Shown here: in pieces, positions 1,542 to 9,733 of the stretch
Layout: each line of letters opens with the position of its first letter
How positions within the stretch are numbered: the stretch's first letter is position 1
The notes under the pieces: model-generated
Told to the model about the DNA's origin: nothing
The model's database searches: none
What the model saw: only the letters and a program-made list of their open reading frames with translations
Position numbers and translations under genes: made by a program
Source: Callorhinchus milii
Taxonomy: Eukaryota
Length of the DNA: 64,000 nt
Assembly: GCF_018977255.1 (NCBI RefSeq)
Contig: NW_024704750.1
Coordinates: 5,084,001-5,148,000 of the forward strand
Reading direction: 5' to 3'

Positions 1542-3814
1542 TACCTCTCTATAACAGGAGGCGCACTGAAATTTTTTTATTTATTTCTAAGGAATAGAGG
1601 ATATGCACTAGACTTTTCAAATTAAAGATAGTCTTAGTGCCAGACATCACCATGGTTACAGGGAGCTCCAATCTTGTAAAAATAATCATCCGTGACAAAG
1701 CAGACTTGCATATATATAAACTAATTATACACTACCCTTGTTGTGCTGCTGAAAAGCTGACTTGCCTGGGTGTTGCATCTGTATTGACAAGCTATGTAGG
1801 TTAATATTTCAGTAAGTAATTAGCTCCAGATCTGCACAGTGCTTTATTATTGTAATATTAATGTTTGTTTCAGTGTCGAACGATATGAGGTGAAACTTAA
1901 AACAAAATTGACTGGTCCAGAAAGGCAAGAAATTCCCTGAACTGGCCAGCACCCTAAGGGCTAATCTTGCCTTCAACTTATGTTATCCTTTCGCCTAGAC
2001 TTCATCTCCTCAAAATAGTTTAGCTCAGTATGCATGTTTGCGATTGAAAGCCATCCAATCAATTTATTTTCACTAAGTTGATGCGTAAACAGAATGATAA
2101 ATATTCTAAAGTTTGACGAGAACCAAAGTTAAGTATGAAGATTATTTATATATGTTTATTAATATGTAATTGCCGCAATGCTGAGAGAAAGCTTCAAAAT
2201 CTCAAATGCTGTGTAAATACATATGGAATAGTACATCCACTCCTACAGCAGTTGACTGGGTAAAGCGGTTCTGAACTTTGATAGCTGATGTAGACAGAGA
2301 TGGGTAATCTCAGGTGAGGCAGACGTGGGGGCTGCTTCTTGGATAGAAATACATTAATCCCCAGTATATTCCAATTTAAGTCTAAGGCACACATTTTAAA
2401 TATTCCATTAAAATAATATGCCTGCTATTGAAAGGCTCTTTCAATCACCAGACCCCATAATTGCTCTGTGAATCACAGAGATTTAAACAGTGCATTATTA
2501 TAGGAATGTCACGTGGATCTTAGCTTTGGTGATGGGTTTCCGCACATGTCAAGCACCCGGCTGACCAAAAAGAGATAAAAATCTTTGCTTGGGTTTGGTG
2601 TAAGTATTCCACTTACAGAACAGGTTGAAGGTTATTGTCACAGCAGGAAAATAACAAAGATCCTACTCATAAGATCGCAAAAGAGGTAGTTGGATGAATG
2701 AATCCAGTGCCCTGGCTTCTACCTCCCTTCTTGCTTATCTGTTGCAGCTGCTGATTACCCTCTGTGTAAAGAAATTCTTATTAATGTCGGTCCTAAAATT
2801 ACCCTTCACAACATTGAACTTGTGCTCACGTGTCCTGCTGCCTTGGCATATCTTAAAATACTGGTCTGGACCCACTCACACTCATAGGAAGGTACAGAGG
2901 ATTCTTTTTGAGTCAATTTATTGATAATGTAGGGATTTTGTATTTTTTACTGTGAGCAAATATGATCTTTTCTGTATTCTCTGACAAACGTTTAGCCTAA
3001 TCAAGCGGATCTCAATACAAAGGCTTGTCCATAAAGCGAACAATACTCTATACTAATCATACCTACCAAAAGTAAAGAAAGTTTAATTAATTGTGGTCTG
3101 AATTCAGTTCAGGTTTAAAAATACTAAATACCACAAGCCTACAATATAACAATATTTGTTACCATCTACATATACTTACACGATATAACACGGTTCCAGC
3201 ATTAAAATAAATGCCAATGTTAATGTTCAGAATTGAAATGTGTTAGAAATACTGCTGTCTTACTATTCTTAAGTGAATGTTTTGCACCGTAAATGCCACA
3301 CAAACTCAAAACAAAATTAATTTCACTTAAGACACTTAGTCCAGTAGCTGCTTACGCAAAATAACTTGGGATTCAAGCCTGTGACTGTAGAGGTTACTCT
3401 GCCACTGACTGCAGATGCACTAAGTAATAAACTAAATAAGCAGCTTGGCCAGTGAATGGATTGTTTACATAACAATCTTACTCAATTCTTAAGATTTATC
3501 AAATAAACATGCTGTAAGACACTCAATGATAAATATTTATTTGCTCAAATGCTTCTTAAAATTATATATATTAAATATTTTACAAAATGATGTTACAATG
3601 CTGCCAAAACATAAAGCAAAGCGTCAGTTATATAAATACACGAGAAAATAAAAGCAGACAAATCTTCTAAAATCCAATTGCTCAGTAAGTGTTCATTTCC
3701 TCTTTCTTTAACACAATTAAACAAATAAGTTGTGTAAATTATGACTTCAAATTCTTTAATAGAGCAATATATCCAGGCCATTTCTATTAAATTATAATTT
3801 AATAATAAAAATTA

Positions 3815-4213
3815 TTATAATAATCCTTGCATTTGATATAGCGCCTTATCACATCATTGAGACGTCTCAAAGTACTTCAGAGAATATACTGTAAAGTGAA
3901 TTGACTGTGTATTTTGTGAGCAAAAAGTGGCAACCAATTACACACAGAGGTGTCCCACAAATCCATTACCATCTATGCAACTTCCTCCATTCTGACACAG
4001 TGACCTGCAACCAAATAGAATAACTATGTTTATGCAAATAGTAGTGACCAAATGAGGTTTTTTTGAGGGATTATTATCCCCTGGTTAGCAATCTGCTAAT
4101 GGACTAACAACCAGGTTCCTGCTTAGTGGTAGGTAAACATTTTCACTCCACCCGGGAATCGAACCCAGGTCCTCTTGCTTGCAAGGTAAGTGCTTTAAAC
4201 AATATGCCAGGGA
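3815..4213 (-). mobile_element. Diverged tRNA-derived SINE interrupted by the DLK1 duplicate
   Basis: Tail taatccttgcatttgatatagcgcc, body tgtcccacaa...gtgaccaa and head ggaatcgaacccagg align to the 24150 copy. Confidence 0.8.
3958..4043 (-). repeat. 86-bp duplicate of the DLK1 last intron/last exon junction (copy of 5234-5319)
   Basis: caaatccattaccatctatgc...gtgacctgcaaccaaatagaataactatgtttatgcaaatagta matches 5234-5319 with one mismatch; offset 1276 bp. Confidence 0.95.
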
Positions 4214-4221
4214 ACTTCTGA

Positions 4222-4227
4222 TTTATT
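4222..4227 (-). terminator. Candidate DLK1 polyadenylation signal (AATAAA); a second candidate at 3536-3541
   Basis: tttatt on + strand about 300 bp past the stop codon. Confidence 0.4.
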
Positions 4228-4523
4228 TGGATACTTTGCATTAATATTATCCATTTCTACATAACTTTGGGAATTACAAGGTCTCATCTTTGCTCATTGA
4301 ACTTCCTCTTACTTAACATGTCCCATGAGTTGGATTTTGAGCTGAGTAAGAAACGTTCACTTAGATAGATACACATTTTATAATAAACCTCAAACATTTA
4401 GACAACACAGCAAGTCATCAACAAAATGCTTGAATTTGGTGTAAGCCGTTATAAAAACACTTCTAAAATGATGCATACAAATAAAGATAGACATTTAGTT
4501 TAACAAATGATAGAAACAAAAAT

Positions 4524-5280
4524 TCACATCGAGATGTAACTTTTCCTGTAGTTTGTCAATTTACTCATGTCCGGGAATATGATTTTGACTGAAGTCTCTT
4601 CGTCGTTGAGAAAGTGATTTTTTTGTTTCCGTAGGTATTGACGATATTTAGCATTTGCCATCCACATTTTACACTTGGAGAAAAAGATGATCAGTGTCGT
4701 TCCCAGGATCACGAGACAAGTCAGCAATCCAAGCATGACAAAGCAGATGACTTGACTTCTGTTGAGCAGGGAATTCGATGTGTGGATGGTTTCTTTGACG
4801 GTGATCTTCAGCATCTCATTACCTTGATGGTGGGTGGGCTTGTGAAAGGCATGCAGCGGTGGATTGAAAAGCTTGCCATGTCTGACCCAACTTACTCTCA
4901 CGTGCTTGGATATGTTTTGCTTTGTATCATGTTTAGAAGAGATATGCTCGTGACAGGTTTCTGCTTCATAACCAGGCAAGCATGCGCAATCAAAACCCCC
5001 CTCAGGAAGATCATGGCAAGTGCCTCCATTCTTGCATGGATGACTAAGGCAGGATGTGATTAGATAATCGCAAGATCCGCCAGTAAAACCAAGGGGACAG
5101 AGGCAGCTGTAGCCAGAAACCAGGTCTGTGCAAGTCCCATTGTTTGCACATGGATTAGAGTCACAGTCACTGATTTTGGTCTCACACAAGACCCCAGTAA
5201 AACCCTTCAAGCACAGGCAGGAAGCCTGGGATCCAAATCCATTACCATCTATGCAACTTCCTCCATTCTGACACAGTGAC
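4524..5280 (-). CDS. DLK1: DLK1 last coding exon (EGF4-6, juxtamembrane stalk, transmembrane helix, cytoplasmic tail)
   Basis: Acceptor ttggttgcAG at 5282-5281. Reads (G)SLCQNGGSCIDGNGFGSQASCLCLKGFTGVLCE...QVICFVMLGLLTCLVILGTTLIIFF...IIFPDMSKLTNYRKSYISM*. EGF repeats, TM helix and IIFP tail match DLK1; synteny with BEGAIN/WDR25 favours DLK1 over DLK2. Confidence 0.95.
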
Positions 5281-5852
5281 CTGCAACCAAATAAAATAAC
5301 TATGTTTATGCAAATAGTACAGTCACCTTTCAGTTAAAAAAAATCATCCTATTGGAAAAAAAATATATCCTTTATCACTGTAGTGTCTGTGAACTATTAT
5401 TTATTCATGAGCTAGTATCTCTACATACACAATTGTTTATTTTGTGTCAGCCTGGCTCTCGCCTCTCAGTCAGAATTTGTGGGTATAAGTCTCATTTGAA
5501 CTCACGTGGAAGTAAGTCCTGGCGGGGAGGAATGGGGATGTATTATCGGAGATGCCATCCTTCGTATGAGACTTTAAACTAAAGTCATGTCTGCCTGTTC
5601 AGGTGGATGTTAAAGACTCATGGCACTATTTGAAAAGGGGAGTTTCTCCCAGTGTCCTGGTCAACAATCTCCCAAATAAAAATTGATCATTTGTTTCCTG
5701 GCTGTTTGTGGGACAAACTGTGTGTAACGGTGCTGCCATCTTTGCCTACAAATAACCAGTCACCCCATTTCACAGTAAATCCTGTGAAGCACTTTGAGAC
5801 TTCCTTCACATGTGAGAAGGCACTGTACCAAACACAAGAATTATTATTATTA

Positions 5853-6252
5853 TTCAAGATCCTCATCCTCTCTGACCTACTATCCCCCTATTTACCTGCC
5901 CATACCCTCCGTTCCTCTGGCTCCGGTCTGCTCCACATTCCCCGCCCCAACCGCCCTACCATCGGTGGCCGGGCCTTCAGCCTCTCAGCCCCGAGGCTCT
6001 GGAACTCCATCCCCCAGTGCCTTCGCCGCCTCCTCCCTTTCCTCCTTCAAGGCCGGTCTCAAGACCTTTCTCTTTGACCGAGCCTTCAGCTCCCCTCTCG
6101 ACTCTCTACCCCCTCCTCGCTCCCTCCCTTCCCTCCCCTCACCCTGACCATTTCCCCCCAATGCTCGGGTCCTGACCCAACTGTCCAGCGCCTTGGGACG
6201 TCCTCCCGACGTGAAAGGCGCTCTATAAATGAAATCTTGTTGTTGTTGTTGT
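5853..6252 (+). mobile_element. L2-clade LINE 3' fragment (young subfamily) in a DLK1 intron
   Basis: Encodes TLRSSGSGLLHIPRPNRPTIGGRAFSLSAPRLWNSIP, typical of the L2 ORF2 C-terminus; stem-loop tail and (TTG)n end. Confidence 0.88.
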
Positions 6253-6493
6253 GTTATTATTTTAGATCATGTGCCTTAAAGGAATTCTGGTGCTATGTGT
6301 TGTACAGGCACTATTGTTTTCTGAAATTTAACCATGTATGCTGTAGTGGGGTTATTATATTATGATTAAAATCATTATTTATTAAGGATTGTTACAGGTC
6401 ATATTTAATGTTATTTTAAAATAGCATTGAGATTTCAATCATATCCATGCAACATTGAGTACATCACAGGTCCTGACAGTATGCATCCTTTAC

Positions 6494-6638
6494 CCATTTA
6501 TGCAGAAATTTCCTTTCCTGAGCTGGCAATGGTTCCCTGTAAACTCCTCTCCACAGATACATCTGTAGCCACCTCCTTCACTCTCTATACACGTTGAATT
6601 GTTAGCGCATGGGTGTTCTGAGGAACAGGTGTGGGGAG
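6494..6638 (-). CDS. DLK1: DLK1 coding exon 4 (EGF3 and start of EGF4)
   Basis: 145 bp, AG/GT flanked, (A)PHTCSSEHPCANNSTCIESEGGGYRCICGEEFTGNHCQLRKGNFCING; phases fit both neighbours. Confidence 0.93.
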
Positions 6639-7919
6639 CTGCAAAGAAGATAACATAGAGTTAATTTAACAGTCACATATATAAAAAAACAAATTAAACA
6701 CTAACTTGCTGCTGCTGATTTAATGCAATTGATTTTGTGTAAGAGACAAAACACCCAAGTACAGTAATGCATTATTTTAAATGCACACATCCTACCTTGT
6801 ATCAGCATTTCAATATGCTTGAGATTATAGAGATGGCACACAATATTATGTAGCTAAAGGGGAGGAGTGACTGCTTTACTCAAATATAAATTAAATAATT
6901 TCAAAATAAAATACTTTTTTAGGGGGGAATTTCTAACATGTAATATGATCTTGCCTATCTTATCTTTCAGAAGGCGGTGGAACTTCGAACAACATAATTC
7001 TATTACATTAAACCGATATTGATTAAATGGAACCATCATCGAATCCTCTGGATCTAAGAGATAATGTGAGTGCTTTGAGGAACATGACCATATTTTAGGG
7101 CAGTGTTTGATTACTTCCATTATGTAGCTGTCTTGCACTTAACTGCCAGTCACTGATTAATGTACATTTGCTATCACATTGTCTAATGTTTGTAAGCTTC
7201 TAGGAAAGCCTGTAGCAAAACCATTTTTCTTCTTTAAGCAACAAATAAAAACATTGCAATGATTCCAAAAAACACCCAGGGGATTTTATCCCGCTTCCTG
7301 TGCTAATATATTCACACTAATGCAATTGTTGCAGTGGATATTTTGCGTTGAAATATATATGCAAATGACATTCAGTGACAACAGAGATTAATGCCATCTG
7401 ATTATCTGCCAATTAAAAGGGTATCATATTTTTCTTCTACCGCTGATGAAAAGGATAATTTAATTCAGATGCATTTATTAGTATTTGGTGGCATGATATC
7501 ATTTGGCGACATAATCTCAGATGTATTTTGCTTTACTTACTTCTTAAATTAGGTTTTCAAATACCAATTACTGTATTAGGACCAAATGAATATGATCTAG
7601 CGCATTAGACAACAACAAAAAGAAAATCTTGCAAACTGGTACTGAGGTACTAACTTTGGTATATCAGTACATGAATAATACATAGAAAACAAAATAATAT
7701 CAAATCACTAAAATGTGAGCTTCTAGCCAAGTCTATCAATTAAATAAATAAATTATAAATTATTTCCAAACTCTTACAATCTGATTAAATATGAATCATG
7801 ATATTGTGTTGTACATAATGAATTCCAATTAGCTGTAACGTTATTTTATTCGTAGCATAGCTTAAGAGTTTTCCAATTTTGCATTGTGTATTTGTGTGAC
7901 ACTAAACGGTTGAACAGAC

Positions 7920-8050
7920 CTGTGTCGCAGAGGATGCCTGACCAACCCTCTTCACAACAGCACTGCCAAGGTTTTGTGCAACTCCCATGTAAACAGCCAG
8001 GAATGGGAGTGCACTGATCACACAAGTCTCCCTGCCAGCCAGACTGACAC
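7920..8050 (-). CDS. DLK1: DLK1 coding exon 3 (end of EGF1, EGF2)
   Basis: 131 bp, AG/GT flanked, [43 protein letters not shown]. Confidence 0.93.
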
Positions 8051-8483
8051 CTAGAAAAACAAACCAGTTAGTTATCGGATTCCACACAAAATCCAACACG
8101 ATACAGATGACTTAGCTAAGGAGGCAACCTTCAAACCTCCACCCCTCTCTGTTCTTCAATGACACGAAAGGGATAACGATATTGAACTGATGCAATTGCT
8201 TTGAGGTGCTATCCTGCGTGAAGAATAAATGCAACTGGTTGGTAGTGTTAGTTTACAATGCTTGGGATCTTTTTTTTTAAAAAAAAGTTATTTTTCACAA
8301 TAGTGTCCTTTTCTACCAGTTTATTCTTGGTTCCAGGAAGGGTGTGCACATCTTGCAGTCTTGTCACATCAGTGTTGTAACACTAAGTTTAAAGCAGAAG
8401 TGTTTCATGGTGAATAAACTTCAGTATATGTTTTCCAGTGAGATGAGTACTCAGAGCAAGGTATGCAATGCTTGAGTTTATAC

Positions 8484-8547
8484 CTGCATTCCCCAGTATC
8501 CTGGCAGAATCCATGCAGTGGGTGACAGTCGGGTTTGCATTCAGTCC
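8484..8547 (-). CDS. DLK1: DLK1 coding exon 2 (EGF1 N-terminal part)
   Basis: 64 bp, AG/GT flanked, (G)TECKPDCHPLHGFCQDTGECR. Confidence 0.92.
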
Positions 8548-8966
8548 CTAAAGATCCAGAAAAGACAATACAAATTAACAAATGCTTGAAATAATGACCA
8601 CTGTTGTTCTCCTTCCACCTTTATAAATATTTTCGCTGTGATGTCTGGTAGTGCACAGGCAATCTCATCCTTTTATTTCCTTTGTTGTCTACGATGGATT
8701 GACCATTTCGTTAGAAATGGAGGCAAATGAGACAATTTAATCTGCACTGACAACACGCTGCAAACATTTCCCAAACCACGTATGAACCTTCATCTTGATC
8801 TTTCTTTCTTGATCTTGAGTTTGCTTTCCATCGGTTCGGATCAATCGTTCTCTTCTGGAATTTGTTGGGGAGCGATTCTGTAGGTTTTGTTGCTGTGCAA
8901 ACACTGAAAACTTCAAGTTCAGCGAATGGTTTGTCCAATGCAAAGCTCTTGAAGTTACCAAATCTG

Positions 8967-9131
8967 ACCCCCCCCCCCAACCCCCCCACACACACACACA
9001 TACACACACACACATACACCCCCCCCCCCCCCCCCCCCACACCACACACACCCTTCCAACACCCCTCCACGTACACATACTCCCAACACCCCCCCCCACA
9101 CATCCCCCCCCCCCCCCCCCCACATACACAC

Positions 9132-9162
<31 letters not shown>

Positions 9163-9627
9163 CCTCCCAACTCCCACACCCCCCCCCACATACACATACA
9201 CANNNNNNNNNNNNNNNNNNNNNNNNNNNNNNNNNNNNNNNNNNNNNNNNNNNNNNNNNNNNNNNNNNNNNNNNNNNNNNNNNNNNNNNNNNNNNNNNNN
9301 NNNNNNNNNNNNNNNNNNNNNNNNNNNNNNNNNNNNNNNNNNNNNNNNNNNNNNNNNNNNNNNNNNNNNNNNNNNNNNNNNNNNNNNNNNNNNNNNNNNN
9401 NNNCAACACACACACACCCTCCCAACCCCCCCCCACAACACAACACACCCTCCCAACCCCCCCCACACACACACACACTCCCAACACCCCCCCCCCCACC
9501 ACACACACACACCACATAACACACCCCTCCCACACCCTACACACACATCCACATAAACACCCTCCCCCCCCCCCCACCCACACACAAACACACTCATACA
9601 CCCCCCCCCCCCCCCCCGCCCCCCCCG
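8967..9627. repeat. Poly-C/(CA)n low-complexity tract in a DLK1 intron, containing an assembly gap (N run 9203-9403)
   Basis: Alternating C runs and CA repeats on both sides of about 200 N. Confidence 0.95.
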
Positions 9628-9657: not shown

Positions 9658-9733
9658 CCTGAGTCCGGGTACCAGTGAGCAGCGGTAACAGGAGACTGAC
9701 CACCAGCACAGAGGCTGCGGAGTGATGAGCCAT
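9658..9733 (-). CDS. DLK1: DLK1 first coding exon (signal peptide)
   Basis: ATG at 9733, MAHHSAASVLVVSLLLPLLTGTRTQ-G, donor G|GTAAGT; hydrophobic signal peptide; phase 1 fits the next exon. Confidence 0.88.

What the first reader, a model, noticed from the sequence alone, without database searches (positions are those of the whole stretch)
3938..4043. Duplicated DLK1 splice acceptor inside a downstream SINE forms a candidate alternative last exon for secreted DLK1
Seen: 3958-4043 copies 5234-5319 (39 nt of intron including the pyrimidine tract and AG, plus 47 nt of exon) in the same orientation with one intronic mismatch. Splicing the exon ending at 6494 to the copy (exon start 4004) keeps frame and reads SLCQNGGSCIDGNGF, then SINE-derived VGHLCV* (TAA at 3940-3938). 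An AATAAA follows at 3541-3536. The product would be signal peptide + EGF1-3 + a shortened EGF4 with no TM helix; GFVGHLC even resembles the real EGF ending GFTGVLC. Established: mammalian soluble DLK1 (FA1/Pref-1) is released by ADAM17 shedding. Inference: this lineage could make a soluble form by splicing instead. The copy may equally be neutral.
Basis: partly seen in the sequence, partly recalled or inferred. Interest (0 to 1): 0.8.

Follow-up and report, generated by a model that had tools for sequence, protein, structure and literature searches.

The report
DNA-repair copy in DLK1 mRNA tail
In the elephant shark, a short piece of the DLK1 gene containing a splice site was copied into an old repeat in the untranslated tail of the same gene, most likely as a harmless DNA-repair patch, though it could in principle let the cell splice out a secreted form of the protein.

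Summary
The duplicate is real: 3958-4043 copies 5234-5319 (86 nt, one mismatch) and has only these two places in G000. The gene is elephant shark DLK1. The copy replaced about 13 nt in the middle of an old tRNA-headed SINE. It has microhomology at both ends and no poly(A) or flanking target-site duplication, and it is far younger than the SINE. That is the signature of a local templated insertion; a second unique local duplicate lies within 464 kb. Spliced-RNA contigs of run X3 read past the 4222-4227 AATAAA and across the copy, so the copy most likely lies in the ordinary 3' UTR. The listed joint from exon 4 to the copy is ambiguous: its 27 letters lie inside the duplicate, and a canonical-only model gives the same contig ends. 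Contig depths fit 0 to about 16% skipping; X6 shows only the canonical path. The frame is kept by construction, the tail peptide is SINE consensus, and the 160-aa product would lack EGF5-6. Verdict: probably a neutral repair scar; minor alternative splicing is not excluded.

The parts
3958..4043 (-). 86-nt templated copy of the DLK1 intron 4/exon 5 boundary (39 nt intron, AG ending 4005, 47 nt exon)
   Evidence: carried by X3 contigs
5234..5319 (-). Source of the copy: canonical exon 5 acceptor (exon starts 5280)
   Evidence: X6 contig 5278-4548 unbroken
3800..4216 (-). Host SINE: tRNA-like head 4216-4144, body, ATT-rich tail; 260 of 306 gap-free columns match the majority of 29 relatives; low end approximate
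3938..4004 (-). Candidate alternative last-exon reading: 15 duplicated residues plus SINE-derived VGHLCV, stop TAA 3940-3938 (use not shown)
3958..3961 (-). TTTG microhomology shared by the copy's 3' end and the SINE's right flank
9658..9733 (-). DLK1 exon 1, coding part (ATG 9733, signal-peptide-like N-terminus)
   Evidence: spliced model equals P0001
8484..8547 (-). DLK1 exon 2
   Evidence: RNA joint 8048-8482 in X3 and X6
7920..8050 (-). DLK1 exon 3
   Evidence: RNA joint 6638-7920 in X3
6494..6638 (-). DLK1 exon 4 (EGF3 and start of EGF4); its donor is the one in question
4524..5280 (-). DLK1 exon 5 coding part (EGF4-6, stalk, TM helix, tail; stop TGA 4526-4524), with internal donor-like sites after 4902, 4896 and 4823
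3890..4523 (-). Transcribed stretch read as DLK1 3' UTR, at least down to 3890 (strand and continuity inferred; hole 4393-4444 in X3)
4222..4227 (-). AATAAA read through in X3 (contig 4154-4392 bridges it)
3755..3803 (-). Two ATTAAA hexamers (3803-3798, 3760-3755), candidate distal poly(A) signals; use not shown

Best explanation
A recent germline DNA-repair or replication template switch. A broken or stalled strand inside an old SINE used a short microhomology (SINE ACTGTTTG against ACTATTTG at the start of the copied stretch) to prime on the DLK1 intron 4/exon 5 boundary 1.3 kb away. It copied about 80 nt, then returned to the SINE at TTTG, and about 9-13 nt of SINE were lost. Shown: the copy, its junction sequences, its age relative to the SINE, and its presence in RNA. 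Inferred: the pathway (MMBIR-like or polymerase-theta-like; these cannot be told apart here). The SINE lies in the DLK1 3' UTR, so the mRNA carries the copied acceptor as passive UTR sequence. Exon 4 splices mostly or wholly to the first, canonical acceptor at 5280, giving the 390-aa membrane protein. Any use of the copy is leak without selected function (inferred).
For: 24 of 29 related SINE loci hold the empty-site string within 4 edits and 0 of 29 hold the insert (alignment). Only 2 places in G000. The copy includes intron and has no poly(A) or flanking target-site duplication. SINE 15% from its relatives' majority sequence against 1 of 86 for the copy; about 13 differences would be expected if both were equally old (my arithmetic). 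X5 differs from the assembly at 20 of 4497 letters in its 7 long unique contigs, so 1 in 86 is within allelic range (P=0.32). A second unique local duplicate (92 nt, 100%, 838 nt apart) exists among 30 near-identical local pairs in 464 kb. X3 contig ends at 3976, 3987, 5263 and 27-29 nt into exon 5 match the k=31 graph of a canonical mRNA with a long UTR. X3 depths: upstream exons 55.9, exon 5 56.1, UTR 62.7, 57.9, 69. X6 contig runs 5278-4548 unbroken with 30 further letters whose depth share falls in the exon 4 bin. 3 of 3 cluster proteins end canonically. Germline templated insertions with junction microhomology are common in humans (PMC8421209 section 10).
Against: The same contig ends also arise with 20% alternative splicing, so topology alone does not exclude it. 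The tail contig 3890-3987 is deeper (69) than the one before it (57.9), which would fit up to about 16% skipping. The tool warns that contig depth is a poor measure and that contigs drop rare variants. Only 3 RNA-like runs were laid, of unknown tissue, and X6 and X7 are shallow. No X3 contig links the coding part to the UTR (hole 4393-4444) and strand is unknown. The copy keeps AG, pyrimidine tract and a branch-point-like GTCAC just upstream (my reading), and it lies about 200 nt from an ATTAAA, a layout that suits terminal exon definition (PMC3737548 abstract).
Confidence: 0.74

Rival explanations
1. One reading: the copied acceptor competes with the canonical one and is used as an alternative last exon at a real level (5% or more) in some tissue. 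It yields a secreted 160-aa protein of signal peptide, EGF1-3 and half of EGF4. A SINE-encoded cysteine 10 residues after the third EGF4 cysteine (native spacing 11) could take the place of the fourth.
For: Acceptor identical over 39 nt but for one pyrimidine swap; in transcribed RNA; stop in the last exon with ATTAAA about 135 nt later; tail contig depth 69 against 57.9; the tool lists a joint 4002-6492, compatible but ambiguous.
Against: No depth drop from upstream exons (55.9) to exon 5 (56.1) in X3; X6 exon 5 contig passes the duplicated bases unbranched. The exon 4 search of proteins of 85-2000 aa returned 1 candidate, the canonical 390-aa cluster (the tool calls such blanks weak). The tail is SINE consensus and the copy is too young to show selection. 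EGF1-3 of human DLK1 does not bind ACVR2B (PMC12216052).
Confidence: 0.16
2. Not raised by the first reader: the copy acts as acceptor for a donor inside exon 5 (after 4896, AGA|GTAAGT; or 4902, 4823). That would cut out the TM helix and tail as an intron and give a secreted 277-301-aa protein with all six EGF repeats, the splice-made equivalent of the shed ectodomain.
For: The donor after 4896 has the consensus intronic hexamer and sits just after EGF6; joined to the copy it gives 279 aa with a 12-residue new tail. Mammalian DLK1 is alternatively spliced in this region, removing the cleavage site and part of EGF6 (PMC8721543 passages).
Against: X3 contig 4445-5263 (depth 56.1) and X6 contig 4548-5278 cross these donors without a break, and no such joint is among the 15 shown of 266. 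GT-rich hexamers are common: 7 donor-like sites were found in this exon.
Confidence: 0.05
3. Different origin, same neutrality: the patch was copied from DLK1 pre-mRNA by a reverse transcriptase (class 2 TSIP route), or entered with the SINE during its insertion.
For: The copy is sense to the gene and to the SINE, and the donor is transcribed. Class 2 TSIPs show microdeletion and microhomology without TSD or poly(A) (PMC5110952 passages).
Against: TSIP donors are described as distant, not nearby; here the donor is 1276 nt away. Entry with the SINE is unlikely given 1 of 86 differences against 15% for the SINE. An RNA template in a later repair cannot be excluded from sequence.
Confidence: 0.1
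4. Assembly artefact.
For: DNA run X5 has one contig through the source (4865-5472) with no break, where a second copy should branch the graph.
Against: X3 contigs hold the copy with its private mismatch and both junctions, with no other letters. X5's word share (0.84) fits loss of the whole SINE interior (0.835), not an empty allele (0.93), which points to assembler pruning.
Confidence: 0.01

Closest known systems
Microhomology-mediated templated insertions (MMB-TI/MMBIR; PMC8421209, abstract and section 10 part 1 read)
   Same: Nearby template, germline, junction microhomology including one-mismatch 'microhomeology', tens of bases long.
   Different: Template is 1.3 kb away in direct orientation; the empty allele was not seen, only inferred from SINE relatives; the copied piece happens to be a splice acceptor landing in the same gene's UTR.
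Class 2 templated sequence insertion polymorphisms (PMC5110952, passages read)
   Same: No TSD or poly(A); microdeletion and microhomology at the junctions; 86 nt falls in the 73-414 bp range given there for experimental insertions.
   Different: Donor is local, not distant; polymorphism not shown.
Mammalian DLK1/Pref-1 isoforms (PMC8721543, PMC3699714, passages read)
   Same: Same gene, six EGF repeats plus TM helix; isoform choice concerns the last exon region.
   Different: [quoted passage not shown] The 160-aa product would lack EGF5-6. Shedding of the shark protein was not tested.
Soluble receptors made by alternative terminal exons, such as sFlt1 (PMC2926593, search listing only)
   Same: What the copy would work like if used: a TM-less product from a different 3' end.
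   Different: The alternative end here is distal, inside the canonical UTR, young, and its use is not shown.
tRNA-derived SINE of cartilaginous fishes (HE1-like; the name is recalled, not tested)
   Same: tRNA head, high copy number (2166 first-look candidates), ATT-rich tail.
   Different: This copy alone carries the DLK1 insert (0 of 29 relatives); no repeat library was available to name the family.

Membership tests
DLK1 ortholog | Signal peptide, six EGF repeats, TM helix, short tail, five coding exons | tested here: met
   Spliced model equals P0001, 390 aa; architecture read from the sequence; named DLK1 by UniRef and RefSeq
DLK1 ortholog | Linked to a DIO3-type deiodinase gene downstream (PMC2408620) | tested here: met
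   Uninterrupted PF00837 match with one TGA about 88 kb downstream on the same strand; its DIO3 label is inferred; a separate 37% paralog lies on C3
Microhomology-mediated local templated insertion | Insert matches a nearby template almost exactly | tested here: met
   85 of 86, 1276 nt away
Microhomology-mediated local templated insertion | Microhomology at the junctions and small loss at the recipient site | tested here: met
   TTTG at the 3' junction; 1 nt, or 7 of 8 nt on a second reading, at the 5' junction; 9-13 nt of SINE missing; recipient inferred from 29 relatives
Microhomology-mediated local templated insertion | Empty allele seen in another haplotype or species | tested here: inconclusive
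   X5 contigs do not cover the SINE interior; no related genomes are held
LINE-mediated insertion / class 1 TSIP / processed copy | TSD of 5 bp or more, poly(A) tail, intron removed | tested here: not met
   None present; the copy keeps 39 nt of intron
SINE-borne transduction | Insert carried by other SINE copies | tested here: not met
   2 places in G000; 0 of 29 relatives
Alternative last exon | Intact acceptor in the same pre-mRNA with a downstream poly(A) signal | tested here: met
   Acceptor intact, region transcribed, hexamers downstream; strand inferred
Alternative last exon | Reads joining the upstream exon to sequence unique to the alternative exon | tested here: inconclusive
   Only contigs were available; joint 4002-6492 has 27 letters, all in the duplicate; depths fit 0-16%
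Alternative last exon | Conservation or a detected protein product | not testable with these tools
   No related genomes held; no proteomics; database isoforms canonical in 3 of 3

The most novel reading that the evidence does not exclude
A single recent repair event gave elephant shark DLK1 a second terminal acceptor inside its own 3' UTR, and it is used. Either exon 4 skips to it (160-aa EGF1-3.5 fragment) or, more strikingly, the consensus donor after EGF6 splices to it and yields a 279-aa secreted full ectodomain with no protease needed. This would be the birth of a soluble ligand isoform caught at or near the polymorphic stage.
Probability: 0.15. Interest if true: 0.6.

Novelty: new member of a known kind. 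Interest (0 to 1): 0.2.

Why it matters
As it stands it is a clean example of a local templated insertion in a cartilaginous fish, with the empty site readable from SINE relatives. It is also a warning: short-read or contig mapping will place the ordinary exon 4-exon 5 junction on the copy and fake an isoform. If the copy were used, it would show a new terminal exon arising in one step by copying a working acceptor. It would give DLK1 a splice-made soluble form, where mammals use ADAM17 shedding, and the locus would be a natural test of competition between two near-identical 3' splice sites.

Tried and rejected
(1) The joint 4002-6492 in X3 as proof of the isoform: rejected, because all 27 letters lie in the duplicate and a canonical-only simulation gives the same contig end. 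(2) The 3' end: X3, X6 and X7 have no cover in bins 3187-3747 while DNA-like X5 goes on. No RNA holder is on record as RNA; X3 is taken as RNA from its spliced joints. (4) GFVGHLC likeness to an EGF end: explained by SINE consensus (15 matches in 29 loci). (5) Solved structures: only generic DLL, JAG and Notch EGF matches at E<=1e-20, no bearing. (6) Rfam over 3400-4600: only the tRNA-like SINE head. (7) Literature: 'Callorhinchus milii' with 'DLK1' gave 0 papers; listings showed no paper on this locus, on duplicated DLK1 acceptors or on a DLK1-overlapping antisense RNA outside mammals (listings only; the library lacks most subscription papers; no supplements read). PMC2408620 passages held nothing on soluble forms. 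(8) Two look-ups of earlier scan notes returned nothing. (9) No fold of the 160-aa product was made, so its disulfide pattern is inference only.

Full report
OBSERVATION. Window 3958-4043 matches 5234-5319 at 85 of 86 letters in direct orientation, 1276 nt apart. On the minus strand it is the last 39 nt of an intron and the first 47 nt of the next exon. The mismatch (4018/5294) swaps one pyrimidine for another. A search of G000 with 3930-4075 found 2 places, copy and source. Two ATTAAA at 3803-3798 and 3760-3755 were overlooked.

THE GENE. Coding exons 9733-9658, 8547-8484, 8050-7920, 6638-6494 and 5280-4524 give a 390-aa protein identical to P0001 (boundaries). UniRef and RefSeq label it DLK1 of Callorhinchus milii. 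An uninterrupted deiodinase match lies about 88 kb downstream on the same strand, the DLK1-DIO3 arrangement of vertebrates (PMC2408620, passages). A 37% paralog lies on another contig; I take it for DLK2 by inference. All 3 of 3 proteins in the cluster (390, 412, 375 aa) end with the canonical exon 5.

THE HOST ELEMENT AND THE JUNCTIONS. The copy sits in the middle of a SINE with a tRNA-like head at 4216-4144 (Rfam RF00005, E 4e-5) and many relatives (2166 first-look candidates, 40 scored). I aligned the 29 fetched relatives. At this site they typically read GGTCAC-T-CAATCCACG-ACTG-TTTG-TGGGAC. 24 of 29 loci hold that string within 4 edits and 0 of 29 hold the insert (whole 3-kb loci searched, so another SINE copy in a locus may count). 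The focal copy reads GGTCAC, then the 86 nt, then TGGGAC. So the insert's last four letters TTTG are also the SINE's own. At the other end either one T is shared and 13 nt are lost, or the SINE's ACTGTTTG primed on the source's ACTATTTG (7 of 8) and 9 nt are lost. There is no poly(A), no flanking TSD of 5 bp or more, and intron is included. The SINE matches the majority of its relatives at 260 of 306 gap-free columns; at that age about 13 of 86 letters should differ, and 1 does (my arithmetic). The copy is thus much younger than the SINE. Run X5 differs from the assembly at 20 of 4497 letters in its 7 long unique contigs, so one difference in 86 is within allelic range (P 0.32). These features fit a microhomology-mediated templated insertion. 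In two people about 100 such germline events each were found, and 138 of 155 and 135 of 148 junctions had microhomology (PMC8421209, abstract and section 10 part 1 of 2). Class 2 TSIPs share the junction features but come from distant donors (PMC5110952, passages). As a base rate I scanned 464 kb around the window: of 30 near-identical local pairs, 28 were high-copy repeats and 2 were otherwise unique, this one and a 92-nt exact pair 838 nt apart. Two events give only a rough rate, but the kind is not rare here.

IS IT SPLICED? Of 24 listed runs I could lay 4, all contigs: X3, X6, X7 (RNA by the tool's guess) and X5. X3 shows spliced joints 8048-8482 and 6638-7920 and no depth over most intron bins, so I treat it as RNA. 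Its contigs are: exons up to 4 plus 27 letters (depth 55.9), 4445-5263 (56.1), 4154-4392 (62.7), 3976-4182 (57.9), 3890-3987 (69). The third bridges the AATAAA at 4222-4227; the last two carry the copy with no other letters. So the duplicate is real and the RNA runs past the proximal signal and across the copy. That it is the DLK1 3' UTR is inferred from similar depth: strand is unknown and X3 has a hole at 4393-4444. It is not evidence: the 27 letters lie wholly in the duplicate. A k=31 graph built from the canonical mRNA with a long UTR gives exactly these contig ends (5252/3976, 5263, 3976, 3987). So does a mix with 20% skipping, while short-UTR models do not. The two fitting models differ only in depth: skipping should lower exon 5 and the proximal UTR against the upstream exons and the tail. 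Upstream against exon 5 gives 0%; the tail against the contig before it gives up to 16%. The tool warns that contig depth is flat and a poor measure, so this is a loose bound. In X6 one contig (depth 7.2) covers 5278-4548 unbroken, with 30 more letters that account for the depth in the exon 4 bin (1.158 computed, 1.16 listed). Contigs drop rare variants. Net result: canonical splicing dominates where it could be seen; minor use is open.

THE PRODUCT IF USED. The frame is kept by construction, since the same acceptor is copied. FVGH is what 10 of 15 matched SINE relatives encode there, and most also have a cysteine in the next two places, so the tail is unselected SINE sequence. The 160-aa product keeps three EGF4 cysteines and gains a fourth at near-native spacing, so it might fold (inference). 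It would lack EGF5-6. Human ACVR2B binds DLK1 EGF4-6 and EGF5-6 but not EGF1-3 (PMC12216052, passages). The larger 50 kDa shed form is the active Pref-1 (PMC3699714, passages; the Mei 2002 paper was seen as a title only). In mammals splicing makes membrane-bound forms and ADAM17 the soluble one (PMC8721543, passages). Donor-like sites inside exon 5 (after 4902, 4896, 4823; 7 such sites in the exon) joined to the copy would give 277-301-aa proteins with all six EGFs and no TM helix. X3 and X6 contigs cross these sites unbroken, so there is no support at present. In favour of possible use, terminal acceptors couple to poly(A) signals (PMC3737548, abstract only) and the copy lies about 200 nt from an ATTAAA.

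AGAINST MY READING. The tail contig is deeper than its neighbour. Only three RNA-like runs of unknown tissue were seen. X5's contig through the source is unbroken, which an absent copy would explain; but its word share (0.84) fits loss of the whole SINE interior (0.835) better than an empty allele (0.93; SE about 0.03), so polymorphism is unresolved.

VERDICT. Observation confirmed; interpretation partly supported. Most likely a young, neutral templated insertion in the DLK1 3' UTR (0.74). Real alternative splicing to the copy has about 0.15-0.2 in all. I found no paper on this locus ('Callorhinchus milii' with 'DLK1': 0 papers). New member of a known kind; interest 0.2.

Noticed in passing
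window 4635-4829 and 6971-7065, + strand: Run X7 contig 23 (1059 nt, depth 10.9) joins these two stretches across a GT..AG intron on the strand opposite DLK1, with good acceptor and donor sites on both pieces. It points to a multi-exon antisense RNA overlapping the TM-coding part of DLK1 exon 5; its other 342 and 425 letters were not placed in 3000-8600. All three frames of the two exons have stops. One contig, one run.
   Followed up: partly
window 4896, 4902, 4823 (- strand): Donor-like sites inside exon 5 just after EGF6, one with the consensus GTAAGT; with the copied acceptor they would give TM-less full ectodomains. No use seen in X3 or X6.
   Followed up: partly
L035:778-869 and 1707-1798: A second exact 92-nt direct duplicate of unique sequence, 838 nt apart, with unrelated flanks; probably another templated insertion.
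   Followed up: partly
window 4393-4444: 52-nt hole in X3 cover between the coding contig and the UTR contigs, while X5 spans it without difference; may be an allele difference or a filter.
   Followed up: no
window 7964-7956 (- strand), exon 3: EGF2 reads QCCC, giving seven cysteines in this repeat and so a likely free thiol; coordinates approximate.
   Followed up: no
G000:C9:21829328-21830038 and C9:5000004-5000858: Two uninterrupted deiodinase matches, each with one in-frame TGA, on the same contig; only the second is near DLK1.
   Followed up: no
window 2999-3186: Run X6 has depth 3.99 in this bin with none on either displayed side; a possible further exon of some transcript.
   Followed up: no
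window 8966-9625: Low-complexity G/T-rich tract in DLK1 intron 1, containing the N run 9203-9403.
   Followed up: no
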